From positions 64,001-128,000 of IMG/VR virus record IMGVR_UViG_3300045988_160113: 64,000 bases of DNA; one strand, written 5' to 3'. Below the pieces are notes generated by a model. That model was not told the DNA's origin, did no database searches, and was given only the letters and a program-made list of their open reading frames with translations. The DNA comes from a virus. Positions 36,280 to 59,636 of the stretch are shown here, piece by piece. How positions within the stretch are numbered: the stretch's first letter is position 1; every line of letters starts with the position of its first letter. The translations under genes were made by a program, and so were the position numbers.

Positions 36280-36356
36280 GGCACTGTAACCCAATTGGCA
36301 GAGGTAAATCACTCAAAATGATTGAAGTATGAATTCGAATTTCATCAGTGCCACCA
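36280..36356 (+). tRNA. tRNA with anticodon CAA (Leu by code) but short variable arm
   Basis: GGCACTG/CAGTGCC acceptor, A73, encoded CCA; AATCA-CTCAAAA-TGATT anticodon arm; ATGAA-TTCGAAT-TTCAT T arm; 3-bp D stem with 11-nt loop; 5-nt variable region. Confidence 0.65.
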
Positions 36357-36452
36357 TAAAGAATTTGGGATAGAGCAGAAAAGCGCACCTGCTTGATAAG
36401 AGTAACTCCCTCTTCCCTTATTCTTATCTTATGGAGTTAGTAAGGAGTAAAA

Positions 36453-37154
36453 ATGGAAGAATATGGCATATTTCAAATTCTTGAAAAGTTAGATGAAAGA
36501 GATAAATATCATCATCAATTATGTCGTATTAGATGCAAATATTGTGGAAGAGAATTTATTCGAGCATATAGTCAAGTAAAAGCTCCGTCTTCTTACACAA
36601 CGGTTTGTAACCATAAAAGGAAAAATGGTGAAGATGTTCAGTATGGGATACACTGGAAAAATTCTCGTATAAGAAGTATTTATGCTGGAATTATATCTCG
36701 TTGTTTCAATGAGGAGGATAGAGATTATCGTTTTTATGGAGCAAAAGGGGTTTCTATTTGTAAAGATTGGCAAGAGAATCCTTTACATTTTGAAGATTGG
36801 GCTTTAGCTAATGGTTATAAAGATAATCTAACTATTGATAGAGAAGATGAGACTAAAGATTATTCACCTGATAATTGTCGATGGATAACAGGAGAAGAAA
36901 ATGCTCGTTGGAAATCAACAACAAATCGAATTGATGTTGATGGAGAAATAAAAACTGGACAGCAATGGGCTAAATATTTGGGTTTTGGTCCAAATCTTAT
37001 AAATAGTTATATTAGAAAATATGGATGGGATAATACTGTAGAATTTATTCGTCGTTATAAAGCACATCCATATCAAGGATTGCTACCTCATAAAACAAGT
37101 TATTATTCTATGTATATGTCTGATAATTATAAAAAGGAGAACAATAATGAATAA
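36453..37154 (+). CDS. HNH-family homing-endonuclease-like protein
   Basis: YGAKGVSICKDW...LTIDREDETKDYSPDNCRWITGEENARWK; N-terminal CRIRCKYCG zinc-ribbon. Confidence 0.5.
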   Translation: MEEYGIFQILEKLDERDKYHHQLCRIRCKYCGREFIRAYSQVKAPSSYTTVCNHKRKNGEDVQYGIHWKNSRIRSIYAGIISRCFNEEDRDYRFYGAKGVSICKDWQENPLHFEDWALANGYKDNLTIDREDETKDYSPDNCRWITGEENARWKSTTNRIDVDGEIKTGQQWAKYLGFGPNLINSYIRKYGWDNTVEFIRRYKAHPYQGLLPHKTSYYSMYMSDNYKKENNNE

Positions 37155-37362
37155 TTATTCCTACTTTATTGGCGATCGTGTTTTTGTAAAGGATTATGGT
37201 GTTGGAACTATCACCAAGATTGACGAGAAGTCGCGTGACTTCACCTATTTCGTCCGTTTCAAGGGACACGCAAGAGGCTGGTTCCCTGAGTATCGTCTGA
37301 GCGAGTATGTGGAACCAGTTGTGAAGGTAGAATCTTCTGATGAGGAAGTATCTACCCTGTAA
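37147..37362 (+). CDS. hypothetical protein
   Basis: 71 aa, ATGA-type overlap. Confidence 0.5.
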   Translation: MNNYSYFIGDRVFVKDYGVGTITKIDEKSRDFTYFVRFKGHARGWFPEYRLSEYVEPVVKVESSDEEVSTL

Positions 37363-37382
37363 ATCCATTATCGACTAACTTT

Positions 37383-37448
37383 TCGCGGCCTTGTGTAAAT
37401 TGCTTCATTTATAGATAGATTTTTTGGTAAATTTATACAAGGCCGCGA
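37383..37448 (+). repeat. long inverted repeat / stem-loop
   Basis: TCGCGGCCTTGT...ACAAGGCCGCGA (12 bp, extendable) around a loop of about 40 nt. Confidence 0.6.
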
Positions 37449-37490
37449 TAAGAGTTTGCTCTGCGCGCAGAATGTGAGAAAGGAGTAATT

Positions 37491-37697
37491 ATGACTTGCC
37501 TTGAACATTTGATTGAGAACACTCTTGATAGTTTCAGTAAACGAAAACCCGTCCAAGAAATCTGTGATAGAATTAGAGAAGATGTAAATTTATCTGGCTC
37601 TGGTCTTACTGTTGAGCAGTGTTATGAAATTTGTCAGTTCATTTTTTACGATGTTCTTCCCTATTCTAATTATTATTTAGAAGATAACAGATACTAA
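37491..37697 (+). CDS. hypothetical protein
   Basis: 68 aa, AAGGAG RBS. Confidence 0.55.
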   Translation: MTCLEHLIENTLDSFSKRKPVQEICDRIREDVNLSGSGLTVEQCYEICQFIFYDVLPYSNYYLEDNRY

Positions 37698-37700
37698 AAT

Positions 37701-37729
37701 TTGATTTTTCTCAAAATTTCTGCTATAAT
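37701..37729 (+). promoter_or_regulatory. promoter cassette
   Basis: TTGATT, 17 bp, TGCTATAAT. Confidence 0.65.
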
Positions 37730-37760
37730 ATTTATAGAAAGTTGAGAGGAGATACATAAA

Positions 37761-37979
37761 ATGAATACCTTGAATTTTGGTGAATTTTACAATGAACTCG
37801 ATGAGAGTGGTAATTCCACTGGTCGTGTCTATAAATGCATTGGTATCGCCGCAGATTATTACCAGACTGGTGAGGAAGTAGTTCTTATGGCTCGTATTGG
37901 TGATGGTGGCTATTCTAATGGTTTGCTTTATATTCCTGTTGGAGATTTCATGGTAGATTTCGAGGAGATTCGAAAATGA
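37761..37979 (+). CDS. hypothetical protein
   Basis: 72 aa behind a cassette. Confidence 0.55.
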   Translation: MNTLNFGEFYNELDESGNSTGRVYKCIGIAADYYQTGEEVVLMARIGDGGYSNGLLYIPVGDFMVDFEEIRK

Positions 37980-38176
37980 ATGAAGATTATGTAAAGGGAG
38001 AAATGTTAGAAAATTTCTCCAATTCTAACAAAAATCCAGACTATCCTATTATTTGGAGCGATACTGTATGGGAAGATATGAATGTTCCTATGTCTTGTCG
38101 AATGTGCAGTAATCATCCTATCAATGGTGGAAGTGGAATTTGCTGGTGCGTTCTCGGAGTTCCAGAAATTAGGTAA
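37976..38176 (+). CDS. hypothetical Cys-rich small protein
   Basis: 66 aa; CRMCSNHP...CWC. Confidence 0.5.
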   Translation: MNEDYVKGEMLENFSNSNKNPDYPIIWSDTVWEDMNVPMSCRMCSNHPINGGSGICWCVLGVPEIR

Positions 38177-38182
38177 ATAAAT

Positions 38183-38257
38183 ATGGGCGTGGTGTAATTG
38201 GTAGCATAATAGTCTCCAAAACTATTGGTTTTCGTTCAAGTCGAAACGCTCATGCCA
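38183..38257 (+). tRNA. trnW: tRNA-Trp (CCA)
   Basis: ATGGGCG/CGCTCAT acceptor; ATAGT-CTCCAAA-ACTAT; TTTCG-TTCAAGT-CGAAA; encoded CCA. Confidence 0.8.
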
Positions 38258-38263
38258 TGCCAC

Positions 38264-38294
38264 GGCGTCGTAGTGTAATTGGCAACACGGTGCG
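38264..38294 (+). pseudogene. tRNA 5' half only (acceptor strand, D arm, 5' anticodon-stem strand)
   Basis: GGCGTCG-TA-GTGT-AATTGGCA-ACAC-G-GTGCG, then AT-rich sequence leading into the GIY-YIG ORF; no matching 3' half (CGCAC...CGACGCC) seen downstream. Confidence 0.4.
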
Positions 38295-38357
38295 TAATAA
38301 ATAAAAGGAAAGGGTAATAAAAGGAAGAGAGGTATTTTATTTTATGGAGTGGTAGTA

Positions 38358-39137
38358 ATGAAAAAGATTGGTATTTATAAAATTATAAATACGGTGAATG
38401 GGAAAATTTATGTTGGTCAGTCTATAAATATTTATGACAGATGGACACAGCATAAGTATAAAAGTATCTATTCTGAAGAATTGGGGTATAACTCCGCAAT
38501 TCATGCTGCAATGAGGAAATATGGTTTTGAAAATTTTGTATTTGAAATTATTGAAGAATGTGAACCGGAATTATTAGACGAAAGAGAAAGATATTGGATT
38601 GAAAAATTGAATTCTTTGACTCCAAATGGTTACAATATCATGCCTGGAGGACAGAAAAATAAAAGAATAATTCATAGATGCTGTGATTGTGGAGCGATAA
38701 TTAGCAAAGGTGCGAAAAGATGTGAAAAATGTGCTCATAAAAATCAAGAAAGAGCAAAAAATCCTTTTGAACCTTTGGAATTAGCAGAAGAAATTAAAGA
38801 AAAGGGCTTTGAAGCTTTGGGCAAAGAGTATGGGTATACAAATGGGCGCCCTATAAAAAAATGGTGTAAGCAACTTGGTTTACCAGTGTATAAAGAAGAA
38901 ATTATTAAATGGTATGATGAACAAATGGGGATAAAACCTCCTGAAAAAGTTCAAAAAAAGAATAAGGAAAGGCCAGTTTATAAAATAGATTTACAAACAG
39001 GAGAGATTTTAGAAGTTTTTTCAAGCATAGCAGAAGCAGCAAGAAGCATTGGAAAAAAGAAAGGTAACCATATTACAGAGGTTTGTAAAGGAAAATTTCT
39101 TTCTGCTTATGGCTATGGGTGGAAATATGTAGAATAA
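38358..39137 (+). CDS. GIY-YIG homing endonuclease
   Basis: IGIYKIINTVNGKIYVGQSINIYDRWTQHK...RYWIEKLNSLTPNGYN; zinc-ribbon CCDCG...CEKC; the stop abuts tRNA-Gly. Confidence 0.85.
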   Translation: MKKIGIYKIINTVNGKIYVGQSINIYDRWTQHKYKSIYSEELGYNSAIHAAMRKYGFENFVFEIIEECEPELLDERERYWIEKLNSLTPNGYNIMPGGQKNKRIIHRCCDCGAIISKGAKRCEKCAHKNQERAKNPFEPLELAEEIKEKGFEALGKEYGYTNGRPIKKWCKQLGLPVYKEEIIKWYDEQMGIKPPEKVQKKNKERPVYKIDLQTGEILEVFSSIAEAARSIGKKKGNHITEVCKGKFLSAYGYGWKYVE

Positions 39138-39139
39138 AT

Positions 39140-39213
39140 GTCGTATTGGTGTAATGCTAGCATAAGACACTTCCAATGTCTTGGTGGCAGTTGGAATCTG
39201 CTATACGACCCCA
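39140..39213 (+). tRNA. trnG: tRNA-Gly (UCC)
   Basis: GTCGTAT/ATACGAC; AGACA-CTTCCAA-TGTCT; encoded CCA; T-loop TTGGAAT. Confidence 0.75.
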
Positions 39214-39315
39214 TCGTCACACACTCCGTGACGAAAATTCTCTTTCCCCCCTTTCCTTTGCCCTGGCAGGCGGCATTATAGTCTGCTTTCCCCCTCAATA
39301 GTAATATATATATAT

Positions 39316-39392
39316 GGAGCAGTAACTCAGTTTGGTAGAGTAGCGGTCTTTTAAGCCGTCTGTCGGGTGTTCGAATCACCTCTGCTTCACCA
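39316..39392 (+). tRNA. trnK: tRNA-Lys (UUU)
   Basis: GGAGCAG/CTGCTTC; GCGGT-CTTTTAA-GCCGT; GGGTG-TTCGAAT-CACCT; CCA. Confidence 0.8.
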
Positions 39393-39395
39393 TAC

Positions 39396-39471
39396 GGGAG
39401 ATTAGCTCAGTTGGTAGAGCGCGTGACTGTTAATCACGATGGCGTAAGTTCGAACCTTACATTTCCCGCCA
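39396..39471 (+). tRNA. trnN: tRNA-Asn (GUU)
   Basis: GGGAGAT/ATTTCCC; CGTGA-CTGTTAA-TCACG; GTAAG-TTCGAAC-CTTAC; CCA. Confidence 0.85.
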
Positions 39472-39618
39472 AGGTTACCACTGAGCCGTAAAGTGGCGGG
39501 TGAAATTCTCGATAGCTGGGGTCTGAGTTTTACGCTATCTCTTTTGACATGGGGTTAAAGCGGTTAATCAGAATTAAATGAGGAAACAGTGTCATTAATC
39601 TCTACCAGCAAATTTTAT

Positions 39619-39695
39619 GGGACAATAGCTTATGAGGTCTGAGCACTGGTCTGAAAAACCAGAGGGTGATGGATCGTTACCATCTTGTCCCACCA
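39619..39695 (+). tRNA. trnF: tRNA-Phe (GAA)
   Basis: GGGACAA/TTGTCCC; CTGGT-CTGAAAA-ACCAG; GATGG-ATCGTTA-CCATC; CCA. Confidence 0.75.
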
Positions 39696-39724
39696 TTTGA
39701 AATTCATTATAAAGATGACGCTAT

Positions 39725-39799
39725 GGTGCGGTAGTTTAGTTGGTAAAACGGAGGACTTATAATCCTTTGTCTCTTGTTCAAACCAAGGGCGCACCACCA
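39725..39799 (+). tRNA. trnI: tRNA-Ile (UAU, AUA-reading)
   Basis: GGTGCGG/GCGCACC (one mismatch); GAGGA-CTTATAA-TCCTT; TCTTG-TTCAAAC-CAAGG; CCA. Confidence 0.75.
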
Positions 39800-39808
39800 C
39801 TTCAAAAT

Positions 39809-39837
39809 TTGACAAATCCACAAATTTTTGCTATACT
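39809..39837 (+). promoter_or_regulatory. promoter
   Basis: TTGACA, 17 bp, TGCTATACT. Confidence 0.6.
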
Positions 39838-39888
39838 ATATGTACAAACTAAGAAATGAATCTAAATAATTTTGAAAAGGAGAACGAA

Positions 39889-41784
39889 ATGAATAACACT
39901 ATTGACCTTACTAAGGCACTTCTCCATTTTTCCCATGTGGTTCTTGATACTACTTCTACTGGTCGTGGTAATTATTTTACTAACGATGATTTTATGGAGT
40001 GTGGTATTTTATTCCTCAAGTCTGATGGCACTGAATTCAAGGGTGTAATTCCCGAAGACATTGCTAAACTCGTTTTCGACGAATTTGACATCACTCATTC
40101 TGCTATCAATACTTTTCATAAGTCTTGGGAGAAGGTAGCAAATGCTGATTATAATCAGCTACTCATTGAGCAGGTACTTCATTATATGTCTACTTATGGC
40201 ATGGAATTTTTTGGTGCTCGCGCAGTGCCTATGATTCCCGTTGAGGAACTAATCGCTGACCCGAATGCTCGTCCTAGTTATAATGCCATTCGTATTATTA
40301 CTGTTGTAAGCGAGGACGAAGCACAGAAGCTTATCAATGAGTTTCTTATGTCTGTCAAGGCTCCTAACCAGATGTTTATGCCCGAGTATGAGGCTTATGT
40401 TCGCTCGGCTACTATTACCGCAGAGGACATTGCTTCTTTTGAGTTGAAGTGCGTCTGGTATGAGTATCATAATAGCGTGCCTGAGCGTGGTCAGGAGTTT
40501 TTGCGCTATGCGATGTATAAGATGATTGGGTCTACTTTGATTATCAAGAACAATCGTACTATCAAGTCTCTTCAGAGTGCTTGTGAGCGCGAACCTGCCA
40601 AGGCATATAACCTGTTTAAGAATGCGAATACGGTGGAATTAGCTAAGTGCTTCTTCCGTTTCAAGCCTTTGTTCCTTGCATTCAAGAAGTCTAAGCCTTG
40701 TGCGCCGATTATCAATGAGATTCGTCGTCTTGCTGATGTATTCCATAAGCCTATGGGTGAACTGACCATTCAGAATGTGTCTAAGCTGATGAAGCAGGGT
40801 CGCTATGAAGAGGCTGGTAAGGTTCTCAAGACCGCAGATAATCGTCAGTTAATCAAGTTGATGAATTATTTTGCTACGGATGATAGAGTAAAAGCGCCTG
40901 CTGTTTTCAACATTCGCAATGGCAAGATTCATGTTCGTGAGGATTTCAAGCGTTTGAATGCCGGTGCAGCAATGGTTTTTGCGGAACTCGTAGAGAAGAA
41001 TCAGTATTCTCTTGCTGGTAAAACTTTCTATATTCCCTCTTATATCCATTATGCTGCGCCTGTGAGTGAAAAGCAGATGATTGGTGATATTCCTTATGGC
41101 ACTCTGCTTGAAGCACCTCAATCTGGTAAGTTCTCTGCGGCGATTTGCTGGGATAACTACAAGGGAATGAGAACTGATATTGACCTGCATATGAATAGCA
41201 AGAATGCTTCGTTTGGTTGGAATAGTGCTTATCGTGGCCGTGATGGAGAGATTCTGTACTCTGGTGATATGACCGATGCAACTCATGGTGCGGCTGAAGC
41301 ATTTTATTTTGAACCACAGGAAGATGTGTTTATTCTGAGCGCAAATAACTATACTGGTGTGCCGAACGTGCCTTTCAAGTTTTTCATTAGTGATGCTCAA
41401 CCTAAAGCGCGTTCTTATCGTGATGCGACTCCTCCTATTGATGTGGAGAGTGCCCTGTTCCCTGCCGTTCCTCTTCGCTTTGCGGCAGGTAATGGAACCG
41501 GTATTGGTATTTTCAATGGCTGCGACTTCTACTTTTATGGTGGAATGCTCGATAGGGGTATTGTTCCTGACCGGAATAAGTATCCTATGTTCATTGATGG
41601 TATTGTTGACCGACTGGATAGAATGATGGACCTCGAAGTTTTCATTCGTATCTGCGGCGGCACTGTTATCAATGAGATGCCTGAGGATGGAGAGATTGAT
41701 AAGGATATTATCGACCTTTCTCCTAACACTCTTACTGCGCGCACCCTATTTGACATTGTTGATGGGGTGCTCGCTAAGAAGTAA
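39889..41784 (+). CDS. large hypothetical protein with possible TerD-like beta-sandwich segment
   Basis: ATG 39889 after AAAGGAG; helical N-terminal two-thirds; TDIDLHMNSKN...ILYSGDMTDATHGAAEAFYF resembles the TerD DxDxS...SGDNxTG pattern (weak). Confidence 0.6.
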   Translation: MNNTIDLTKALLHFSHVVLDTTSTGRGNYFTNDDFMECGILFLKSDGTEFKGVIPEDIAKLVFDEFDITHSAINTFHKSWEKVANADYNQLLIEQVLHYMSTYGMEFFGARAVPMIPVEELIADPNARPSYNAIRIITVVSEDEAQKLINEFLMSVKAPNQMFMPEYEAYVRSATITAEDIASFELKCVWYEYHNSVPERGQEFLRYAMYKMIGSTLIIKNNRTIKSLQSACEREPAKAYNLFKNANTVELAKCFFRFKPLFLAFKKSKPCAPIINEIRRLADVFHKPMGELTIQNVSKLMKQGRYEEAGKVLKTADNRQLIKLMNYFATDDRVKAPAVFNIRNGKIHVREDFKRLNAGAAMVFAELVEKNQYSLAGKTFYIPSYIHYAAPVSEKQMIGDIPYGTLLEAPQSGKFSAAICWDNYKGMRTDIDLHMNSKNASFGWNSAYRGRDGEILYSGDMTDATHGAAEAFYFEPQEDVFILSANNYTGVPNVPFKFFISDAQPKARSYRDATPPIDVESALFPAVPLRFAAGNGTGIGIFNGCDFYFYGGMLDRGIVPDRNKYPMFIDGIVDRLDRMMDLEVFIRICGGTVINEMPEDGEIDKDIIDLSPNTLTARTLFDIVDGVLAKK

Positions 41785-41792
41785 ATAAATTT

Positions 41793-42234
41793 TTGGCATA
41801 GAGAGTTCCTTTTTTCTATAATCTTGCCGAGAGATAGACTAATACCTATTATTAGGACTATCTTTTGGCGCATACTTGAAGAAAACTCTCCGCCAACGAT
41901 TAGCATAGATAGTTCCTTTATGGAGAAAATACTATCCGCTAATCCTATATAAGCGCACAAGTAGTTCCTTTATTCAAATATTAAGAAACAATAATTTACA
42001 CTACTCGCGCTAATCACCTCCTTACGCCGCATAGAAAGTTCCTCTAAAAAGGTATTCTTCAGAAAATATTGATTTACTTTCCGCGGCAATTTACTTTGAA
42101 TGTATAGCATCGAGAGTTCCTTTTGCCGAAAGGCGCTAGACTGCTAATCTAATTTTCACTCTCCGCTATATTGGTCGCATAAGAACTTCCTTTTTCTAAT
42201 AGATATTTAGGTTATTTATGTTAGTTCTCGCGAC
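41793..42234 (+). repeat. array of six tandem covarying stem-loops with conserved GCATAGAnAGTTCCTTT motif
   Basis: Units 41793-41896, 41898-41944, 41952-42011, 42026-42087, 42103-42170, 42174-42234. Each has an outer clamp, a 5' ATA bulge, a GAnAGT/ACTnTC helix, a single 3' C and a loop starting TCC; arms change in a compensatory way. Confidence 0.8.
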
Positions 42235-42240
42235 TAAAAT

Positions 42241-42269
42241 TTGAAATTTTTATAAAAGTATTATATAAT
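42241..42269 (+). promoter_or_regulatory. promoter cassette
   Basis: TTGAAA, 17 bp, TATAAT; leader ATATATAGAAAGTGAGGGAAAG. Confidence 0.65.
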
Positions 42270-42294
42270 ATATATAGAAAGTGAGGGAAAGAAT

Positions 42295-42747
42295 ATGAGA
42301 TTTTATTCTGATATGCTTGAGAAGTTTTTTGATAGTGAAGAAGAGTGTCTTTGGGCTGAGAAGGAAACTCTTGATAAGAGTCGTAAAGCAATTCAGCGTG
42401 CGAATGATGAACTAGAACTCAAAGACCTTCATAAGAAAATTAGCAATTTGCGTGCAGAGCTTGAGAATAGTTTTGAAGAGTATTATCGGCTTCAGTATGT
42501 GTATTTTGATAATTATGGTGTTCTTTGTGACATGACTGAAGAAGAAGGCCATCCTGACCCTGTGGGTGAAAAGGGTGAAAAGGGTGACTGTGACTGTGAT
42601 TGTGTCTGTAAGTGTAGCGATGATGATAATTGTGATTGTGCCACTAAGGATGAAGATGATTTCAATCCTATCACCATTCATATGACCACTTATCGTCCTT
42701 TCAAGGATACTTATCCTCATCTGTGGAAATTTTTTGGAGGTAAGTGA
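42295..42747 (+). CDS. hypothetical protein with Cys/Asp-rich C-terminal half
   Basis: 150 aa; GEKGEKGDCDCDCVCKCSDDDNCDC. Confidence 0.55.
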   Translation: MRFYSDMLEKFFDSEEECLWAEKETLDKSRKAIQRANDELELKDLHKKISNLRAELENSFEEYYRLQYVYFDNYGVLCDMTEEEGHPDPVGEKGEKGDCDCDCVCKCSDDDNCDCATKDEDDFNPITIHMTTYRPFKDTYPHLWKFFGGK

Positions 42748-42748
42748 T

Positions 42749-43027
42749 ATGTTTATTCCTGCTAATCCATCTGTTTTTCCTTGTGAAAATTGTACACATC
42801 GTGGTATTTGTAAATATGAAGATGATGTAATGAGTTTTGTTCGCTGTGCTAAATTGCCTGAACAAGAATGCTTGTCTATCAAGTATGAATGTAAGTATAA
42901 GACTTATACAAATTTGTTTGGTGGATATAGGGATTTTGAAGTGACTAAGATTAGTAATACTAATGGTTGTACTACTTCTCGTCCTTATACTATTGATACA
43001 TCTTCAGAATGTATTGATAAAATTTGA
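42749..43027 (+). CDS. hypothetical Cys-rich protein
   Basis: ATG 42749 after GGAGG. Confidence 0.5.
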   Translation: MFIPANPSVFPCENCTHRGICKYEDDVMSFVRCAKLPEQECLSIKYECKYKTYTNLFGGYRDFEVTKISNTNGCTTSRPYTIDTSSECIDKI

Positions 43028-43052
43028 CAAAATCTAAAATTTCTGATATAAT
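43024..43052 (+). promoter_or_regulatory. promoter cassette driving a noncoding transcript
   Basis: TTGACA, 17 bp, TGATATAAT; leader ATATTCAGAAAGTGAGAGGAG; no credible ORF follows. Confidence 0.65.
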
Positions 43053-43092
43053 ATATTCAGAAAGTGAGAGGAGAACTAAATCTCCTCAATAT

Positions 43093-43168
43093 AGCAGTAG
43101 GGAGAAACGGTTTCCTCGCTTGGCTCATAACCAAGAGACATCTGGGTCAGCACCAGTTACCGCAACCA
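43093..43168 (+). ncRNA. tRNA-like module (anticodon-like CAU) with non-canonical T-loop
   Basis: 76-nt cloverleaf: CTTGG-CTCATAA-CCAAG arm, T-arm TCTGG-GTCAGCA-CCAGT, 3' TACCGCA-A-CCA; 5/7 acceptor pairs. Confidence 0.45.
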
Positions 43169-44361
43169 CAATTAAAAACAATGAGGCTAACGGCAGTTGC
43201 ATCAACGAAAGTTGATTAGACGGGTCGGGGTTAGCAAAGAAAGGTTAACAGGTAGTGCAGCGGTAGGTAACAAATCCGTAAGTCGAAATGAGTTGGGAAA
43301 ACCAAATGATACGGCTTAGTCCTTCGTAAGAAGTTGAAGAGAGATTTTAGGTAAAAGGTAACAACTTTTAACTGCTCTTCGTAATTGACCATGAAACAGG
43401 GTCATAGCTACCACTCATTGTTTTTAGATGTTTTATCAAAGAAGACGAATGGTTGGTGAGTCTCAAAACAACCCAACTACCACATTACTAATCATCGCTA
43501 CTCGTGGTTAGTAAGTTGTTTTAGAAGTAGCAAACCTACGAGTATGGTAGGCGGCGCGGTAATAGTCGTAAAGGGTGAGGTAAAGCTGAATTATCATTTG
43601 AGGTAGTTTCTTTCTCCTAGCCAAAAACAGAAACCGGTGCGCAGTCGTGAAATGCGGGAATGGTAGATAAGCCTTAGTGTACTACTCATACGGTTGTGAG
43701 TTCTCCTATGTATCTTGAGAACTCTCGGCGGCGAATGCCTAAATCTCCCCGCCCGCGCGGTTATAGCGGCGTTTACCAAACTGTTATTCGATAAAATGGT
43801 TTGGAAGTGCGAGTAGTAACTTGGAATTACTCCCGAAAGCAACGGTTAGATTGCTCAACTTGCTAGACTCAAGTTGACAAATGGGAGGTGGCCCCTCCTA
43901 TGTCTCCCACGCAACACTAAGCGCGGGCGTATATGGGAAATAGTCAACCATATACTTATTGGGTTGAGAGTGTAATATTATACATAAAATCCCTCTGCGC
44001 GCAGAGTAAATCTGCGGTATCGTAGTAAAAACTCTACAAAAAAACTATATCAAAGGGACGACTCTAAACGAGGTAAGGGAAACAAAGTAAAGAGTACATT
44101 CTCTTAGGCTACTTTGGTATTATATGTGGTGTGGTTGAGGAGTATGGGCGACGATACACCGGAATGCGGAGTTAGCGACATACTGTGTAGATGGCGAGTC
44201 AACAGAGCGATATAGTTTATTTTGGCTTCCTTTCCGCTCTTGCGGGATGACTCTAGGATAGCGATACTACAAAGTAAAGGAGGACTGTGATTTATTCATA
44301 GCCCTCTTTTGCTTTACCAAAATTGTGTATTTTTAGGTAGAAAATTTTACTTAGTAATAAG

Positions 44362-44386
44362 AGGTTATAAAATTATAACCTTTTAT
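44362..44386 (+). terminator. intrinsic terminator closing the noncoding unit
   Basis: AGGTTATAA-TTATAACCT palindrome followed by TTTTAT. Confidence 0.55.
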
Positions 44387-44417
44387 AATATATTTTATAA
44401 AACAAGGAGGGAATAAT

Positions 44418-45029
44418 ATGGATAATATAGTTGTTTCCATTCCCGAACGTGCGAACACAACCATCCCTGACCCAAGTCTATTATGGTATTATGAAGACTT
44501 AGAAGATAGAGTTTATCAATTGGTTGGAGAGGTTGATGAAGGTTTGCTAGATTTCTCACGCCACGTTATTAGATGGAATAGAGAAGATAAAGGAAAACCA
44601 GTTGAAGAGCGTAAGCCTATAAAATTATTTTTCTTTAGTCCTGGTGGAAGTCTTGATATAAATTATTCTGTCATTGATATTATTCGCTTGAGCAAAACTC
44701 CTATTATTGGCATCAATATGGGTGTTTGTTGTTCTGCGGCGGCGTATATTTATCTTGCTTGCCATAAGCGTTATATGCTCCCTCATTCTTATTTTGTATT
44801 TCATCAAGGCAGTTCTCAAATGTCAGGAACTTATGGTGAAGTTGTTGCTATTATGACTGATTATCAGAATCAAGTTGCTGAATTAAGTTCCTTTATGGAA
44901 GAGAGAACTACTTATACTAGTGAGGAAATTACTGACAATATCGTTACTGAATGGTATGTAAGGGAAGAGGAAGCTCTTGAAAAGGGAGTATGCCACGAAG
45001 TAATAGAAGATATAGAGGTGCTATTATAA
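44418..45029 (+). CDS. ClpP-family serine protease
   Basis: FFFSPGGSLD...GINMGVCCSAAAYIYLACHKRYMLPHSYFVFHQ matches the ClpP S14 pattern (xSPGGxV, GxAAS, R..lp....iHQ). Confidence 0.8.
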   Translation: MDNIVVSIPERANTTIPDPSLLWYYEDLEDRVYQLVGEVDEGLLDFSRHVIRWNREDKGKPVEERKPIKLFFFSPGGSLDINYSVIDIIRLSKTPIIGINMGVCCSAAAYIYLACHKRYMLPHSYFVFHQGSSQMSGTYGEVVAIMTDYQNQVAELSSFMEERTTYTSEEITDNIVTEWYVREEEALEKGVCHEVIEDIEVLL

Positions 45030-45857
45030 GTGGGATATATTTATAAGATTAGCAATACTGTAAATAATAAAGTTTATATAGGGCAAACCTCTCGAACGGT
45101 AGAAAAAAGATGGAATTTACATAAGCGAACAGCAAAAAATCCTTCTTATCTATCTTATTCATATCCTTTATATCAAGCTATGAGAAAATATGGTATAGAT
45201 AATTTTCAAATTGAAGTTATTGAAGAAACTGATAATAAAAATTTGAATGAGCGAGAAGTTTATTGGATATCTTATTATGATTCATATAATAAAGGTTATA
45301 ATATGACTTTAGGTGGAGATGGCCATTATAAATATGAAGATGAAGATTTTTTAGAATTATGGAATCAAGGGTATAATGCTGCTCAAATTACAGAAATGCT
45401 ACATTGTGATAGACATACAGTCGCCGATAGGCTATCTCAATTAGTTCCAAATTATTCTAATTTACAAAAAGAGAGACAAACTCCTTCAAGATATTCTTTT
45501 GAAAAAGAGCAAAAAATTAGAGAATGCTGGGATAAAGGAATGAGTTCTAAACAGATTCAAGAAGAATTAGGAATAAATAGAAAAGGTATAAAGGGATATC
45601 TGGTAAAATATAAAAATTTTTCCGAAGAAGACTGGGAAAAAAGAAATTATGTTCAAAGAAAAAATAGCAACCCTCAAAAAATTGCTATAAAACAATTGAC
45701 TTTAGATGGTCAAGAAGTAGCAGTACATCAATCTATTGCTGATGCTGGAAGAGCAGTTGGAGATGTTAGACGAAGTGCCAATATTCGCGCTTGTCTTATT
45801 GGAAAACAAATAACGGCATATGGATACAAATGGCAATATGCTGATAAGGAGAACTAA
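45030..45857 (+). CDS. GIY-YIG homing endonuclease (free-standing)
   Basis: GYIYKISNTVNNKVYIGQTSRTVEKRWNLHK...VYWISYYDSYNKGYNMTLGG; GTG start directly after the ClpP stop. Confidence 0.85.
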   Translation: MGYIYKISNTVNNKVYIGQTSRTVEKRWNLHKRTAKNPSYLSYSYPLYQAMRKYGIDNFQIEVIEETDNKNLNEREVYWISYYDSYNKGYNMTLGGDGHYKYEDEDFLELWNQGYNAAQITEMLHCDRHTVADRLSQLVPNYSNLQKERQTPSRYSFEKEQKIRECWDKGMSSKQIQEELGINRKGIKGYLVKYKNFSEEDWEKRNYVQRKNSNPQKIAIKQLTLDGQEVAVHQSIADAGRAVGDVRRSANIRACLIGKQITAYGYKWQYADKEN

Positions 45858-46741: not shown

Positions 46742-48391
46742 ATGGCGAACCTATTGGGTGAAAGTAAGCAACTTGCCAGCAAATTTGTATTCTACGACCA
46801 ACTAAAAGAGTATGACCCTGGTACTATTCAACGCTCTCTATACGATAGCGCTGTTTCTGCTGGTGAAGCAGTTCTTGCTCTCAATAAACCAGAGTCGCGA
46901 GCAGCATTCATCGCTTCTAATCTGCGCGCGCAAGCAAGAAATGAAGCACAGAAAGATATAATGTTGCTCAATACTTACTTTGGTGGGAATTATAATATTG
47001 ACGATGTTTATAATAAAGATATTGGTAAAAAAATCACCATTGCTCTCAATGAAGCACTCAATTTGAAAGATATTTTTCAACGCAATTATGACCGTATTGT
47101 AAATGAGAAAGGTGATGGGCGCGCAGCAAAGGTTACTATTTCTTCTGTTATGGAGAGTTATGTAATAACAGAAATTAGAAACAGTTGGCCTACTATTTGT
47201 AATCATGTATTGAAACGCTTAGCAGATAGTAATGGTGAATACTCTATCGCGCAAGCAATAGAGGAAGAATTCAATTCTGAATATATAAAGAAAGTTATTG
47301 GACGCGCGCTGGACAAAGCATTAGCATCACCTACTTGGACTGGTGGAAATGATAATCCTTTCAAAGAATTAGTGGACTATTTGAATACCCATAAAGACCG
47401 TCGCAATGAAATTCTTGACAAAATGTGGCAGTATTTAGGAATTGATAGATTGAAACAAAATATGGTAGAAAATATTACTAATTCTGAACAATTGAAGAAT
47501 TTCAAAAATAGCCGAAAGAGCGGAAAAATAAATTTGACTACTTCAATCAAAAGCGGAGTCCAGCGAGGGCTTATGGGAGAAGCACTTTCTCAAGTTGTTA
47601 GTGAGGCCGCGGTAAAATTGAATACAGAGAATACTAAGTTTACTTCTGAGCAAGTTGGCTCTATCGGCGCGAAGCCAGATGTAATATTAGGTTTTCAAAT
47701 CAAAGTGGATACTATTAGTGGTATTATGACTAATGATAGATTCAAAGGGTCTGATAGGGAAACTAATCGAAGTAGATTTATTGAAATCAATGAGCATTTG
47801 AAGAGATTGAATAAAGGAATTGTTGTCTACTCTAATGTAAAAGATTACGCACTTGGTCAAGATTTCAAGAGACGTGGTGGTTTTTCTACTGGTGGAGACA
47901 TGACATTAGATACCTATGCTAATATAATGAAAAAGACAAAAACAGGCGAGTTCATTGGCGCTGTTGCTAATGCTATGGATAAAGCAGTATTTGGCGATGA
48001 TAAGCATAGGCAAGCAATTTTAGAAATGATAACTCAAGATATGGCAAACTTTTTGTTCGATGATGTATTTACCGTTGGTAAAGAAATGACTGGCGGCGCA
48101 ACTGCGATACATCTGATGAATTTAGATGGAGTATATATTCCAGTTTCATATTTACTATTGCTTTTAGCAGAAGCATTTGAAAAGGAAGATAAGAATAATT
48201 ATCGAGATATTTTCTATCCAACTATTAGGTATACGGAAATTTTATATCCTGATGGCGGTGAAGGCCATGAGGGAGATAATATATGGTCTTTTGAAGACTG
48301 GAAGAGACAGAGAGACGACGCACTAAACAAGATTACTATTGGCGCTCATTTTGCGCGCAGTTTTGTTGATATTGTAAAGGAATTGAAATAA
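46742..48391 (+). CDS. hypothetical protein (549 aa)
   Basis: Long ORF, no motif recognised. Confidence 0.65.
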   Translation: MANLLGESKQLASKFVFYDQLKEYDPGTIQRSLYDSAVSAGEAVLALNKPESRAAFIASNLRAQARNEAQKDIMLLNTYFGGNYNIDDVYNKDIGKKITIALNEALNLKDIFQRNYDRIVNEKGDGRAAKVTISSVMESYVITEIRNSWPTICNHVLKRLADSNGEYSIAQAIEEEFNSEYIKKVIGRALDKALASPTWTGGNDNPFKELVDYLNTHKDRRNEILDKMWQYLGIDRLKQNMVENITNSEQLKNFKNSRKSGKINLTTSIKSGVQRGLMGEALSQVVSEAAVKLNTENTKFTSEQVGSIGAKPDVILGFQIKVDTISGIMTNDRFKGSDRETNRSRFIEINEHLKRLNKGIVVYSNVKDYALGQDFKRRGGFSTGGDMTLDTYANIMKKTKTGEFIGAVANAMDKAVFGDDKHRQAILEMITQDMANFLFDDVFTVGKEMTGGATAIHLMNLDGVYIPVSYLLLLLAEAFEKEDKNNYRDIFYPTIRYTEILYPDGGEGHEGDNIWSFEDWKRQRDDALNKITIGAHFARSFVDIVKELK

Positions 48392-48668: not shown

Positions 48669-48700
48669 ATATATAGAAAGTGGAAAGAGAGGAACTAAAA

Positions 48701-49231: not shown

Positions 49232-50425
49232 ATGACTGTTCATGATACTTATGATAATCTAATGGAAGTCCAAAAGTTTATTCTTGACCACGAAAATTGG
49301 AAAGAACTCTTGGAAAATCCTCCTTACTGCCTGAAGATTACCGTAGAGGGTACTCTTATTATGTTCAATTATAGTCAGTTGGATTCTGATTTCTATAATC
49401 CTATCGTCAAGGAATGCCGTGGTTTGATTCTTGATAAAAATACTTACCGAGTTGTGTGTCGCGCGATGGATAAGTTTATGAATGCTGAGGAAGGTGCAAG
49501 TGACCTCAATAAAATCAACTGGTTTGATTTTCAGATTCAGACTAAAATTGATGGGTCTTTGATTCGTCTTTATCATTATAACGGCGAATGGCACGTGTCC
49601 ACCAGTGGTACGATTGATGCCTTCAATGCACCTCTCAATGTTGGCGGTTACAAGACTTTCGGTGATTTATTTGCGGCAGCACTATGGAAGTATATCAATC
49701 CTGAGTGTTTTTATGGAATGCTTGACCCTACTCATACTTATTGGTTTGAGTTGACTTCTCCGTATAACCGCGTTGTTATTCCTTATGATGAAATTGAATT
49801 GACTTTTCTTGGTTGGCGCGCAAATTATGCTCCCTATAAGGAAAAGTGGCCCTCTCAGTCAGTTGTCGCAGAGTATATTCCTATTGCTAGTAGGCTTCCT
49901 CGTCAATCTTATCAGTCTCTCCGCGCGCTGGCTGATTCATTGCCTTGGAATGAAGAGGGCTTTGTAATTTGTGATAATAATTTCCATCGTGTCAAGGTGA
50001 AGTCTCCTGCTTGGATTTCTGCGCACTATCTGCGGAATAATGGCATTCAGCCTGACCGTAGACTTATTGATGTTATCCTACATGGTGAGCAGGAAGAATT
50101 GCTTACTTATGCTCCTGAATATACCGACCGTCTACACGAACTTCAAGCAATGATGGAAGAGTATCACCTGCGCGCTGATGAACTTTTTAGTGTTTATTTG
50201 GAAATGTATATTGGTTTGGATTGTCCTGGCCGCGCATGGTTCGCAAAAACTGTAAAGAAGAATAAAGAAGATTGTGAACCGTATTTGTTTTGGGCTTTCA
50301 GTAAGATTTATGGCACTCCGCGCGGTGAAATGGATGATAATAAAGATTATTCTTTCAAGAGATATGAGAAGGAAAATCTTGATGCGCGCAAGTGGGTAAG
50401 ATTGTTGAAGTTGAAGGAGGAATAA
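49232..50425 (+). CDS. ATP-dependent RNA ligase (Rnl1-like)
   Basis: Motif I QTKIDGSLI (KxDGS); ECRGLILD upstream; EEGFVICD (motif IV-like); VKVKSP (motif V-like). Confidence 0.6.
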   Translation: MTVHDTYDNLMEVQKFILDHENWKELLENPPYCLKITVEGTLIMFNYSQLDSDFYNPIVKECRGLILDKNTYRVVCRAMDKFMNAEEGASDLNKINWFDFQIQTKIDGSLIRLYHYNGEWHVSTSGTIDAFNAPLNVGGYKTFGDLFAAALWKYINPECFYGMLDPTHTYWFELTSPYNRVVIPYDEIELTFLGWRANYAPYKEKWPSQSVVAEYIPIASRLPRQSYQSLRALADSLPWNEEGFVICDNNFHRVKVKSPAWISAHYLRNNGIQPDRRLIDVILHGEQEELLTYAPEYTDRLHELQAMMEEYHLRADELFSVYLEMYIGLDCPGRAWFAKTVKKNKEDCEPYLFWAFSKIYGTPRGEMDDNKDYSFKRYEKENLDARKWVRLLKLKEE

Positions 50426-59488: not shown

Positions 59489-59567
59489 CAGTAATGTGGT
59501 AACTACCATGCTCAACGCGCGAGAGTACCCGGAAGGTAGTTGACAGCCAGGAAAGACTGGCAGGCCT

Positions 59568-59636
59568 GGTCGATTAGTGTAACGGTAGCACGCCATCCTT
59601 TTATGGAGGAAGAGAGGTTCGACTCCTATGCGATCT
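59568..59636 (+). ncRNA. degenerate tRNA-like module (UUU-type loop)
   Basis: GTGT-AACGGTA-GCAC D arm; CCATC-CTTTTAT-GGAGG (one mismatch); AGAGG-TTCGACT-CCTAT; poor acceptor pairing; no CCA. Confidence 0.35.

What the first reader, a model, noticed from the sequence alone, without database searches (positions are those of the whole stretch)
41793..42234. Six tandem stem-loops with compensatory covariation and a conserved GCATAGAnAGTTCCTTT core, downstream of a 632-aa unknown protein
**Shared architecture.** Between the stop of 39889-41784 and the next promoter lie six consecutive units built the same way:
- An outer clamp helix: TTGGC/GCCAA, GATTAGC/GCTAATC, AGCGC/GCGCT, GCCGC/GCGGC, TATAGC/GCTATA, GTCGC/GCGAC.
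- A 3-4 nt 5' bulge: ATA in four units, ACAA and ATC in the others.
- An inner helix: GAGAGT/ACTCTC, GATAGT/ACTATC, GTAGT/ACTAC, GAAAGT/ACTTTC, GAGAGT/ACTCTC, AGAACT/AGTTCT.
- A single C (TC in one unit) opposite the bulge.
- A loop that always starts TCC(T/C)T and then varies in sequence and length, from about 14 to about 75 nt.

**Why it matters.** The clamps are unrelated in sequence yet always complementary, and the third inner-helix position covaries. That is the signature of a selected hairpin, in RNA or single-stranded DNA, with a sequence-specific recognition face.

**What it is not.** It is not a CRISPR array, not a terminator series (no U-tracts) and not tRNA. I do not recognise it as a described element.

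**Possible roles (speculative).** Multimeric binding sites or a decoy RNA for a phage or host protein, a packaging or replication structure, or a processed small-RNA array.
Basis: seen in the sequence. Interest (0 to 1): 0.85.

Follow-up and report, generated by a model that had tools for sequence, protein, structure and literature searches.

The report
Hairpin RNA array with partner protein
The six hairpins are real, conserved small structured RNAs that always travel with the unknown protein gene next to them, in many phages and in bacterial RNA-repair operons; together they look like an undescribed counterpart of the Ro60/Y-RNA particle.

Summary
Window 41793-42234 (+) holds six units with one architecture: variable clamp helix ending in G-C, AUA-type 3-nt bulge, inner helix RRNRGU/ACYNYY, UCCUUU, variable loop, single bulged C. 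No Rfam family matches.

- **It is a selected sense-strand structure.** Stems covary heavily and carry 83 G·U pairs against 4 A·C, as expected of an RNA.
- **It has a partner protein.** Homologs of the upstream 631/642-aa ORF lie next to such hairpins in 25 of 26 phage loci and 17 of 18 genome-collection loci (mostly Bacteroidota) fetched by protein alone. These include cyanophages S-CRM01 and S-CBWM1 and gut phage Phass-1.
- **The context is RNA repair.** In Chryseobacterium the pair sits between RtcB and RlaP, comparable to the slot Ro60/Y RNA holds in Salmonella.
- **The loops carry tRNA parts.** In relatives they hold YrlA-like tRNA mimics, anticodon-stem-loop look-alikes or whole CUA-anticodon tRNAs.
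- **The protein is uncharacterised.** It has no Pfam, NCBIfam, PHROG or PDB relative and is not a TROVE protein.

Best reading: an undescribed Y-RNA-like ribonucleoprotein module tied to tRNA repair or surveillance. The RNA-protein partnership is well supported. The biochemical role is inferred.

The parts
39856..41784 (+). Gene of the partner protein: 642 aa from the first ATG, or 631 aa from the near-invariant Met at 39889.
   Evidence: - Homologs lie next to the hairpins in 14 pattern-derived loci, 25 of 26 protein-derived phage loci and 17 of 18 genome-collection loci.
- The family has 1676 clusters at 50% identity.
- It has no Pfam, PHROG, NCBIfam, PADLOC or PDB match.
- AlphaFold2 model: pLDDT 78.
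41793..41896 (+). Unit 1: TTGGC / AUA / GAGAGU / UCCUUU / 78-nt loop with its own long hairpin / ACUCUC / C / GCCAA.
   Evidence: (z = -7.0).
41898..41944 (+). Unit 2: GAUUAGC / AUA / GAUAGU / 17-nt loop / ACUAUC / C / GCUAAUC.
   Evidence: 44.9 bits, E = 7e-10.
41952..42011 (+). Unit 3: AGCGC / ACA / AGUAGU / 34-nt loop / ACUACU / C / GCGCU.
   Evidence: 38.2 bits.
42013..42024 (+). Spacer AUCACCUCCUUA between units 3 and 4. It looks like the 3' end of 16S rRNA (the anti-Shine-Dalgarno sequence).
   Evidence: - Read directly.
- AUCACCUCCUU is kept in the orthologous arrays L054 and L096 and is absent from 94 other loci.
- Its meaning is unknown.
42026..42087 (+). Unit 4: GCCGC / AUA / GAAAGU / UCCUCU / 36-nt loop / ACUUUC / C / GCGGC.
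   Evidence: 37.6 bits.
42103..42170 (+). Unit 5: UAUAGC / AUC / GAGAGU / 40-nt loop / ACUCUC / C / GCUAUA. The loop holds a GCC-GAAA-GGC hairpin and an anticodon-stem-loop look-alike, UAGA-CUGCUAA-UCUA, at 42137-42151.
   Evidence: -.
- In the orthologous units the 'anticodon' reads GUU (L096) and UUU (L054) on the same stem.
42174..42234 (+). Unit 6: GUCGC / AUA / AGAACU / 35-nt loop / AGUUCU / C / GCGAC.
   Evidence: 40.5 bits.
39809..39837 (+). Promoter-like site (TTGACA, 17-nt spacer, TATACT, with an upstream TG) ahead of the protein gene. It probably drives the gene plus the array as one transcript.
   Evidence: -. This is a consensus match only.
- No terminator-like site lies between the gene and the array.
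42241..42269 (+). Next promoter-like site (TTGAAA, 17-nt spacer, TATAAT), which marks the downstream edge of the array.
   Evidence: This is a consensus match only.
49232..50425 (+). Context: a T4 Rnl1-type RNA ligase gene. A P-loop kinase (56479-56982) and a metallophosphoesterase (55645-56112) lie further on.
   Evidence: - Pfam: RNA_lig_T4_1 at 3.4e-16, AAA_33 at 2.9e-16 and Metallophos_2 at 2.1e-05.
- Their membership in the module is inferred, not shown.

Best explanation
**What it is.** The six units are small structured RNAs, probably transcribed with the upstream gene. Each is a copy of a modular RNA with two parts:
- A constant stem: a C-G closing pair, an A-rich 3-nt bulge opposite a single bulged C, a 6-bp helix ending in U-A, then single-stranded UCCUUU.
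- A freely variable apical module.

**How it most likely works.**
- The constant stem is the docking site for the protein encoded next door (39856/39889-41784).
- The complex is a functional counterpart of Ro60 with its Y RNAs. The protein sits on the stem. The loop presents a tRNA-like module or other element to enzymes or nucleases that act on tRNA.
- In bacteria the pair works within RtcB-RlaP RNA-repair operons.
- In large phages it lies in or beside tRNA gene clusters. There it probably helps keep the tRNA pool working against host tRNA-cleaving defences, by recruiting repair or processing enzymes or by acting as a tRNA or anticodon-loop mimic.

**Shown versus inferred.**
- Shown: the structure, the folded strand, and the gene linkage with the protein and with RNA-repair genes.
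- Shown: tRNA-like loop contents in relatives.
- Inferred: direct binding, whether the units are processed into separate RNAs, and the biochemical role.
For: **Structure.**
- 95.5% of cells are paired and 9 of 11 pairs change on both sides. None of 500 shuffles reaches the observed score, and slid registers collapse to 30-52% paired.
- 93 of 131 5' cores have a true 3' partner, against 0 for a false partner. G·U outnumbers A·C by 83 to 4.
- The orthologous arrays L054 and L096 keep stems and core while loops diverge.

**Partner protein.**
- tblastn finds the ORF family beside the arrays in 14 loci that were found by RNA pattern alone.
- In the reverse direction, 25 of 26 IMG/VR loci fetched by protein alone carry model hits. 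All 54 hits lie on the gene's strand, within about 700 nt of it.
- 17 of 18 loci fetched by protein from the bacterial and archaeal genome collection (14 of them Bacteroidota) carry hairpins, in nearly all cases directly upstream of the gene.
- Isolated phages S-CRM01 (g174), S-CBWM1 (gp22) and Phass-1 carry both.

**RNA-repair context.**
- The Chryseobacterium paridis operon reads: divergent WYL regulator, RtcB, hairpins, protein, RlaP, RlaP.
- RtcB linkage is kept in 7 further Chryseobacterium species and in Psychroserpens, and RlaP linkage in most of them. A phage locus has RlaP downstream, and Tenacibaculum has RtcB plus an Rnl1-like ligase.
- The window encodes Rnl1, a P-loop kinase and a phosphoesterase.
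- ROT/TROVE with a tRNA-like RNA partner is a described RNA-repair platform (PMC7824862). The rsr-yrlBA-rtcBA gene order in Salmonella is from my own knowledge.

**tRNA-like cargo.**
- YrlA-like permuted tRNA domains occur in the loops of L035, S-CRM01, L070 and L072. Rfam YrlA scores them 34-41 bits, below its gathering score of 69.
- Flavobacteriia have a normal-order tRNA-like RNA with the motif in place of the anticodon loop.
- Complete tRNAs with a CUA anticodon sit inside some units.
- Anticodon-stem-loop look-alikes occur in 20 of 129 loops, against 5.9 in shuffles.

**Acting in trans.** Units also lie 2.5-11 kb from the protein gene, among tRNA genes: in S-CBWM1 (L051 3371-3425) and in L040 (12848-14400).
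Against: - No experiment shows binding, transcription or processing.
- None of the six loops in this window holds a tRNA-like domain. The tRNA link here rests on one anticodon-loop look-alike and on relatives.
- The protein has no recognisable RNA-binding or Ro60/TROVE fold. Foldseek against PDB gives nothing below E = 0.02. A profile search of PDB sequences finds nothing.
- The invariant Asp/His/Glu cluster (D441, D443, H445, D471, E481) could mean the protein is an enzyme that acts on the RNA rather than a platform.
- The covariation set was selected partly by pairing, so the percentage paired is inflated. The anchored control and the protein-first searches offset this.
- RNA-repair genes are close by only in some lineages. 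In the window, Rnl1 is 7.5 kb away.
Confidence: 0.6

Rival explanations
1. **Processing cassette.** The conserved stem is a cleavage signal, and the neighbouring protein is the endoribonuclease. It would work as Cas6 does on CRISPR repeats or ToxN on ToxI. Cutting at the bulges would release the loop contents (tRNAs, tRNA mimics, short hairpins) from a multi-unit transcript, possibly with regulated timing.
For: - Whole tRNAs with a CUA anticodon lie inside units, with leader and trailer paired into the stem.
- Units are packed 1-15 nt apart.
- The protein has an invariant acidic/His cluster.
- Hairpins directly abut tRNA and tmRNA genes.
Against: - Many loops are too short to be useful cargo. 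Unit 2's loop is 17 nt, 6 of which are the constant UCCUUU.
- In Flavobacteriia the motif is closed at the clamp end and sits inside a tRNA-like RNA, so it flanks nothing.
- No nuclease fold or family was detected.
- The inner helix and UCCUUU, which would remain with the released piece, are the most conserved parts.
Confidence: 0.15
2. **Cis-acting autoregulatory elements.** The hairpins are part of the mRNA of the neighbouring gene. The protein binds them to control its own translation or mRNA stability, and they have no role in trans.
For: - In most loci the hairpins lie immediately upstream of the gene on the same strand. In bacteria they end about 20 nt before the start codon.
Against: - In this window, L054, L096 and L056 the array is downstream of the stop codon.
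- Some units lie 2.5-11 kb away among tRNA genes.
- Loops carry tRNA-like domains and whole tRNAs.
- Two to six or more copies, each with a different loop, are more than a simple operator needs.
Confidence: 0.12
3. **Decoys only.** The hairpins act without a dedicated protein partner. They would be tRNA or anticodon-loop mimics that soak up host anticodon nucleases or other tRNA-binding defence proteins.
For: - Anticodon-stem-loop look-alikes are enriched in the loops.
- The 'anticodon' of unit 5 changes between close relatives (GCU, GUU, UUU) on a constant stem.
Against: - It does not explain the invariant stem core, nor the near-obligate linkage to one protein family.
- It does not explain the presence of the pair in bacterial repair operons.
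- Most loops have no such look-alike (109 of 129).
Confidence: 0.08
4. **DNA-level element.** The repeats act as iterons, or as single-stranded DNA hairpins, for replication, packaging or recombination (attC-like).
For: - The direct-repeat half of each unit resembles an iteron series.
- attC sites also keep their structure rather than their sequence. This point is from my own knowledge.
Against: - G·U outnumbers A·C by 83 to 4, which shows selection on one strand with wobble pairs allowed, as in RNA.
- Units are always on the strand of the adjacent gene and of the tRNA genes.
- Spacing is irregular.
- The element occurs in bacterial chromosomes inside operons.
- No integrase or replication-initiator gene is linked to it.
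Confidence: 0.03

Closest known systems
Bacterial Y RNAs (YrlA/YrlB, Rfam RF02553) with Ro60/Rsr, as in the Salmonella rsr-yrlBA-rtcBA RNA-repair operon
   Same: - Several small RNAs are encoded beside one large protein gene.
- The RNAs are modular: a terminal stem carrying a conserved bulged protein-site-like motif, plus a variable module.
- At least one RNA per locus in many relatives carries a tRNA-like domain of T arm, closed acceptor-like stem and D arm (PMC4201824).
- The pair is linked to RtcB.
- It occurs in both bacteria and phages.
   Different: - The partner is not a TROVE/vWA protein.
- The Rsr-site motif GNCGAAN0-1G on the 5' strand is absent. Instead the stem has GC-AUA-RRNRGU-UCCUUU ... 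ACYNYY-C-GC.
- Rfam YrlA scores stay at 34-41 bits, below its gathering score of 69, and only where a tRNA-like loop exists.
- The six window units have no tRNA-like domain.
- Arrays of up to six or seven units are larger than known Y RNA loci.
Metazoan Y RNA Ro60-binding helix (a conserved helix with a single bulged C and a 3-nt bulge on the opposite strand; Green et al. 1998, recalled from memory)
   Same: - A short conserved helix is interrupted by one bulged C and by a 3-nt bulge on the other strand.
   Different: - Here the two bulges face each other instead of lying 2 bp apart.
- The bulged C is on the 3' strand.
- The helix sequence is unrelated.
- The resemblance is a lead only and was not tested.
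Repeat-RNA/processing-protein pairs (CRISPR repeat with Cas6; ToxI with ToxN)
   Same: - Tandem structured units lie next to the gene of a protein that plausibly recognises them.
- A variable segment sits between constant parts.
   Different: - The constant parts are short, and the stems covary instead of being identical.
- There are no cas or toxN genes.
- The variable parts resemble tRNA pieces rather than spacers.
Leader-trailer processing stems around stable RNAs (RNase III stems of rRNA operons; archaeal bulge-helix-bulge stems)
   Same: - In a few units a complete tRNA is enclosed by a paired leader and trailer with bulges.
   Different: - The helix is far shorter than an RNase III substrate.
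- The bulge geometry is 3 nt opposite 1 nt, not bulge-helix-bulge.
- Most units enclose no stable RNA.

Membership tests
Y RNA / YrlA (Rfam RF02553) | Reaches the Rfam gathering score of 69 bits. | tested here: not met
   - No YrlA hit in window 41000-43000 even at E <= 10.
- Relatives with tRNA-like loops score 34-41 bits.
Y RNA / YrlA (Rfam RF02553) | Encoded next to, and bound by, a Ro60/Rsr (TROVE-domain) protein. | tested here: not met
   - The adjacent protein has no TROVE or any other Pfam hit, even at E <= 10 across 31 family members.
- Foldseek against PDB returns no Ro60 structure.
- The 30 window ORFs scanned against Pfam show no TROVE. The smaller ORFs were not scanned.
- Binding cannot be tested with these tools.
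Y RNA / YrlA (Rfam RF02553) | Rsr-site motif GNCGAAN0-1G (or GGUCCGA) near the 5' end, in the terminal stem (PMC4201824). | tested here: not met
   - The 5' strands read ..GC-AUA-RRNRGU-UCC.
- The only GNCGAANG match, GCCGAAAG at 42125-42132, lies in the loop of unit 5 as part of a GAAA-tetraloop hairpin. About 0.2 matches are expected by chance in 460 nt, by my estimate.
Y RNA / YrlA (Rfam RF02553) | tRNA-like domain: T arm, closed acceptor-like stem and D arm. | tested here: not met
   - Absent from all six window loops.
- Present in family members elsewhere: L035, S-CRM01, L070, L072 and the Flavobacteriia.
Y RNA / YrlA (Rfam RF02553) | Modular stem-plus-variable-module RNAs encoded in RNA-repair (RtcB) gene neighbourhoods. 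| tested here: met
   - RtcB, hairpins, protein, RlaP operon in Chryseobacterium and Psychroserpens.
- The window carries Rnl1, a kinase and a phosphoesterase.
tRNA | Cloverleaf detected by ARAGORN or the Rfam tRNA model. | tested here: not met
   - None in 41793-42234.
- The tRNA genes lie at 36280-39799 and at 59567.
CRISPR array | Near-identical direct repeats at a regular period, with unique spacers and cas genes nearby. | tested here: not met
   - Only a 17-nt core repeats. Start-to-start spacings are 107, 52, 74, 78 and 70 nt. The stems differ between units.
- No cas domains were found in the scanned ORFs.
Intrinsic terminators | GC-rich hairpin followed by a U tract. | tested here: not met
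   No terminator-like site in 41785-42800.
Integron attC sites / single-stranded DNA recombination hairpins | R''/L''-L'/R' boxes (RYYYAAC ... GTTRRRY), cassettes with ORFs, and a linked integrase. | tested here: not met
   - No such boxes appear in the sequence.
- There are no ORFs between units and no integrase was seen.
- The G·U to A·C ratio of 83:4 points to RNA.

The most novel reading that the evidence does not exclude
**A second, Ro60-independent 'Y-RNA-like' ribonucleoprotein system.**
- A large, unnamed protein family (over 1,600 clusters at 50% identity) recognises a small bulged-stem tag.
- Evolution has grafted that tag onto many tRNA-related forms: free hairpins, anticodon-stem-loop mimics, circularly permuted tRNA mimics, tRNA-like RNAs with the tag in place of the anticodon loop, and even functional amber-suppressor tRNAs.
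- Bacteroidota would use it in RtcB-RlaP tRNA repair.
- Large phages of cyanobacteria and gut Bacillota would use it to protect or control their tRNA supply. In stop-codon-recoded phages it may gate maturation of the suppressor tRNA.
Probability: 0.45. Interest if true: 0.9.

Novelty: new variant of a known kind. Interest (0 to 1): 0.82.

Why it matters
**New biology**
- It would add a second RNA-protein platform to bacterial and phage RNA repair, alongside Ro60/Y RNA.
- It would give a first functional handle on a very common 'hypothetical' phage protein. Examples are S-CRM01 g174, S-CBWM1 gp22 and the Phass-1 protein WIC39683.1.
- It would give a reason for non-tRNA sequence inside phage tRNA clusters.

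**Wider leads**
- The same stem tag attached to tRNA mimics, anticodon-loop mimics and real suppressor tRNAs suggests a general way of marking tRNA-shaped RNAs for one protein.
- That bears on phage counter-defence against anticodon nucleases.
- It also bears on how recoded phages time suppressor tRNA activity.

**Testability.** Cultivable systems exist: Chryseobacterium, and Synechococcus with phage S-CRM01. The idea can be tested directly.

Tried and rejected
**Known RNA families**
- Rfam found no family for the units, at E <= 10 on the region and at gathering score on the whole window.
- The top hit, rli31 at 25 bits against a gathering score of 80, is noise.

**Minus-strand coding reading**
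- On the minus strand the core reads AAAGGAACUNUCUAUG, which looks like a ribosome-binding site plus start codon.
- I rejected it. In L034 the putative ORF stops after 3 codons. It cannot explain the covarying clamps. G·U to A·C asymmetry points to the plus strand.

**Spliced permuted or split tRNA**
- My first idea was a bulge-helix-bulge-like splicing scaffold for permuted or split tRNAs.
- I dropped it because the implied junctions lie at different tRNA positions and at different distances from the stem in the two L035 units.
- The YrlA-type unspliced architecture explains them, as do the Rfam YrlA alignments.

**K-turn.** Not fitted: there are no tandem G·A pairs after the bulge (read from the sequence).

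**Protein identity**
- No hit from Pfam (single sequences and 31 members), PHROGs, NCBIfam, PADLOC, PDB sequence or profile searches, or Foldseek against PDB.
- Foldseek against BFVD gave four unannotated or loosely named viral proteins, one labelled 'tellurium resistant like'.
- The motifs WD..DIDLH and SGDMTDA look TerD-like by eye. But hhalign of the family against a TerD sequence recalled from memory gave a probability of 0.2. I make no TerD claim.
- The 549-aa neighbour (46742-48391) also has no PDB or Pfam match.

**Searches that returned nothing**
- Megablast of 39800-44500 against GenBank phages found no match.
- The first protein-pattern scan of IMG/VR with the single sequence found nothing. 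The alignment-based scan worked.

**Literature**
- I found nothing on this RNA or protein.
- Burroughs and Aravind, NAR 2016, is the most likely place for a prior mention, and it is not held.
Full report
**1.

Window 41793-42234 (+) lies between the stop codon of the ORF ending at 41784 and a promoter-like site at 42241-42269. It contains six back-to-back units of one design:
- a clamp helix of unrelated sequence that always ends in G-C;
- a 3-nt bulge beginning with A (AUA x4, ACA, AUC);
- a 6-bp inner helix (RRNRGU paired to ACYNYY) ending in U-A;
- single-stranded UCC(U/C)U;
- a variable loop of 17-78 nt;
- one bulged C opposite the 3-nt bulge.

Supporting results:
- ViennaRNA reproduces this fold for each unit and for the whole 461-nt stretch. 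The z-score is -6.9 and 0 of 100 shuffles fold as well.
- The 17-nt core is over-represented: 8 matches against 0.92 expected, 6 of them here.
- ARAGORN finds no tRNA in the region.
- Rfam finds no family, even at E <= 10.
- No terminator-like site is present.

**2. The element is widespread and its structure is under selection**

Two pattern scans of IMG/VR and a structural scan of my own found the same units in many unrelated phage contigs of 13-504 kb. They usually lie in or beside tRNA gene clusters, on the tRNA strand.

Tests of the structure:
- **Covariation.** On 63 non-identical units trimmed to the constant parts, 95.5% of cells pair and 9 of 11 pairs show changes on both sides. None of 500 shuffles reaches the observed covariation. 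Every slid register drops to 30-52% paired.
- **Control for selection bias.** Those units had been picked partly by pairing, so I anchored on the 5' core alone. 93 of 131 cores have a correct 3' partner, and none has an information-matched false partner.
- **Folded strand.** G·U pairs outnumber A·C by 83 to 4. The folded strand is therefore the sense strand, as expected for RNA.
- **Model specificity.** A covariance model (R1) hits the window only at the six units.

- L054 (neighbouring protein 49% identical) has six units with at least six compensatory pair changes.
- In L096 (protein 89% identical) UCCUUU is 100% identical, the inner helices 93%, the clamps 88% and the loops 55%, with indels in the loops.

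**3. The hairpins have a protein partner**

The ORF upstream of the array is 642 aa from the ATG at 39856. It is 631 aa from the near-invariant Met at 39889.

Linkage, tested in both directions:
- Homologs (24-49% identity) sit directly beside the hairpins in 14 loci found through the RNA pattern alone.
- Of 26 IMG/VR loci fetched with the protein alone, 25 carry R1 hits. The exception lacks upstream DNA. All 54 hits lie on the gene's strand, within about 700 nt upstream or downstream of it, in loci mostly about 13 kb long.
- GenBank phages with the gene also have the hairpins: gut phage Phass-1 and Synechococcus phages S-CRM01 (g174) and S-CBWM1 (gp22). In the two cyanophages the gene lies inside a tRNA cluster.

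Other observations:
- Some units lie 2.5-11 kb from the gene, among tRNA genes. This argues for RNAs that act in trans.
- The protein family is large: 1676 clusters at 50% identity.
- Every member that carries a name is called 'hypothetical'.

**4. The genomic context is RNA repair**

The protein also occurs in the bacterial and archaeal genome collection. Fourteen of the 18 loci are Bacteroidota: Chryseobacterium x8, Mesonia, Tenacibaculum, Zunongwangia, Psychroserpens, Roseivirga and a Cyclobacteriaceae MAG. The other four are MAGs of other taxa. In the Bacteroidota loci one to three hairpins lie directly upstream of the gene, and 17 of the 18 loci carry at least one model hit.

- In C. paridis the operon reads: divergent WYL regulator, RtcB RNA ligase, hairpins, the protein, then two RlaP nucleotidyltransferases.
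- RtcB linkage is kept in 7 further Chryseobacterium species and in Psychroserpens, and RlaP linkage in most of them.
- A 269-kb phage contig has RlaP downstream. Tenacibaculum has RtcB and an Rnl1-like ligase nearby.
- This is comparable to the slot that Ro60 (rsr) and its Y RNAs hold in the Salmonella rsr-yrlBA-rtcBA operon (gene order from my own knowledge). A ROT/TROVE protein with a tRNA-like RNA partner is a recognised RNA-repair platform in cellular organisms, and a subset of jumbo phages encode such a protein (PMC7824862).
- The window itself encodes a T4 Rnl1-type ligase (49232-50425), a P-loop kinase and a metallophosphoesterase.

**5. The variable loops are tRNA-related in many relatives**

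- **Permuted tRNA mimics.** In L035, S-CRM01, L070 and L072 the loop holds a T arm, a closed acceptor-like stem and a D arm. This is the circularly permuted tRNA mimic that defines YrlA (PMC4201824). Rfam YrlA scores these at 34-41 bits, below its gathering score of 69, because the stem part does not match.
- **Normal-order tRNA-like RNAs.** In Flavobacteriia the first RNA of the locus has the same parts in normal tRNA order, with perfect 7-bp acceptor stems in L085 and L091. The tagged hairpin replaces the anticodon loop.
- **Whole tRNAs.** In Phass-like phages and in L046 a complete tRNA lies inside a unit. Its anticodon is CUA, or it has an 8-nt anticodon loop.
- **Anticodon-loop look-alikes.** Short loops are enriched for these: 20 of 129 against 5.9 in shuffles.

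In the window only unit 5 has such a look-alike (UAGA-CUGCUAA-UCUA). Its orthologs keep the stem but read GUU or UUU in place of GCU. The window's six units are therefore the 'short' members of the family.

**6. The protein remains unidentified**

- AlphaFold2 gives a moderately confident model: pLDDT 78, pTM 0.71. It shows an N-terminal alpha/beta part, a helical-repeat region (about residues 150-340), a beta-sandwich (about 345-560) and a C-terminal part.
- Invariant residues include many Arg/Lys in the helical region and a cluster of D441, D443, H445, S469-G470-D471 and E481 in the sandwich.
- Nothing significant came from Foldseek against PDB, from PDB sequence or profile searches, or from Pfam, PHROGs, NCBIfam and PADLOC.
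- BFVD gives only four uncharacterised viral proteins.
- An apparent TerD-like motif was not supported by hhalign.
- The protein is not a TROVE/vWA protein.

**7. Interpretation**

The best-supported account is a ribonucleoprotein module. The constant bulged stem is the protein's docking site, and the loop is an exchangeable, often tRNA-like, module. The complex works with tRNA repair or surveillance functions, much as Ro60 works with Y RNAs.

- **Shown:** the structure, the strand, the conservation, the two-way gene linkage, the repair-operon context and the tRNA-like loop contents in relatives.
- **Inferred:** binding, processing into separate RNAs and the biochemical role.

Rival accounts:
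- A Cas6/ToxN-like processing cassette. Whole tRNAs inside units favour it. The 17-nt loops and the Flavobacteriia layout disfavour it.
- Purely cis autoregulation. Arrays downstream of the gene, distant copies and tRNA cargo disfavour it.
- Partner-less decoys. These do not explain the linkage.
- A DNA-level element. The G·U to A·C asymmetry and the constant strand disfavour it.

**8. Novelty**

The element fails the membership tests for Y RNA/YrlA: there is no Ro60, no Rsr-site motif, and scores stay below the Rfam gathering score. It nonetheless works like that kind by architecture and context, so I file it as a new variant of a known kind.

I found no description of it in Rfam 15 or in the searchable literature. 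One likely source, Burroughs and Aravind 2016, could not be read.

Noticed in passing
window 43186-43313 (+): A RAGATH-33 RNA (Rfam RF03102) scores 129.9 bits against a gathering score of 120.4. It lies about 1 kb downstream of the array. It is a known motif class; I know of no assigned function.
   Followed up: no
window 42013-42024 (+); L054 8179-8189; L096: The spacer between units 3 and 4 reads AUCACCUCCUUA, the same as the 3' end of 16S rRNA (the anti-Shine-Dalgarno sequence). AUCACCUCCUU is kept in the two orthologous arrays and is absent from 94 other loci.
   Followed up: partly
window 42137-42151; L096 and L054 orthologous unit 5: An anticodon-stem-loop look-alike keeps its stem (UAGA/UCUA) and its C-U...A-A loop frame. 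Its 'anticodon' reads GCU in the window, GUU in L096 and UUU in L054. This looks like diversification of a tRNA mimic.
   Followed up: partly
L040 12905-13020 (-), L041 2298-2413 (+), L046 2720-2837 (+): Complete tRNAs are nested inside hairpin units. Two are amber-suppressor-type tRNAs (CUA) in Phass-like phage contigs; Phass-1 itself recodes TAG. The third has an 8-nt anticodon loop (CUAU). Leader and trailer pair into the conserved stem, which may gate tRNA maturation.
   Followed up: partly
L049 (Phass-1 OQ749652) 9680-10118; L034 2511-2949: - A tmRNA gene (Rfam, 78-82 bits) starts 8 nt after the last hairpin.
- It is not annotated in the Phass-1 record, and the word tmRNA does not occur in the Phass-1 paper.
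- The annotated CDS WIC39680.1 (L049 9214-9513) overlaps the hairpin array and may be a false gene call.
   Followed up: partly
L085 about 5525-5640; L091 about 5425-5540; L081 5496-5593: Flavobacteriia encode a tRNA-shaped RNA between rtcB and the protein gene. In L085 and L091 it has a perfect 7-bp acceptor stem, a D arm and a T arm, and its anticodon loop is replaced by the tagged hairpin. The L081 copy is more degenerate. ARAGORN and Rfam tRNA do not call it at threshold.
   Followed up: partly
window 36280-39799 (+) and 59567-59637 (+): Eight tRNA genes are present: Leu, Trp, Gly, Lys, Asn, Phe, Ile(UAU) and a second Lys. In the cluster at 36280-39799 they are interleaved with homing-endonuclease genes: HNH at 36453-37154 and GIY-YIG at 38349-39137. 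A further GIY-YIG gene lies at 45030-45857.
   Followed up: no
window 49232-50425, 55645-56112, 56479-56982 (+): An RNA-repair toolkit is present: a T4 Rnl1-like RNA ligase, a metallophosphoesterase and a P-loop (AAA_33) kinase.
   Followed up: partly
window 48680-49003 (+); L017, L020, L022, L025, L026, L034: A 107-aa ORF of unknown function has 41% identical homologs just downstream of the hairpin array and tmRNA in Phass-like contigs. It may be a further component, or the match may only reflect shared gene order.
   Followed up: no
window 636-5980 (-): Phage-encoded topoisomerase genes: a GyrA/ParC-like gene (788 aa) and a GyrB-like gene (492 aa). A DNA ligase (10588-11706) and a UvrD-like helicase (7299-8345) also lie on the minus strand.
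   Followed up: no
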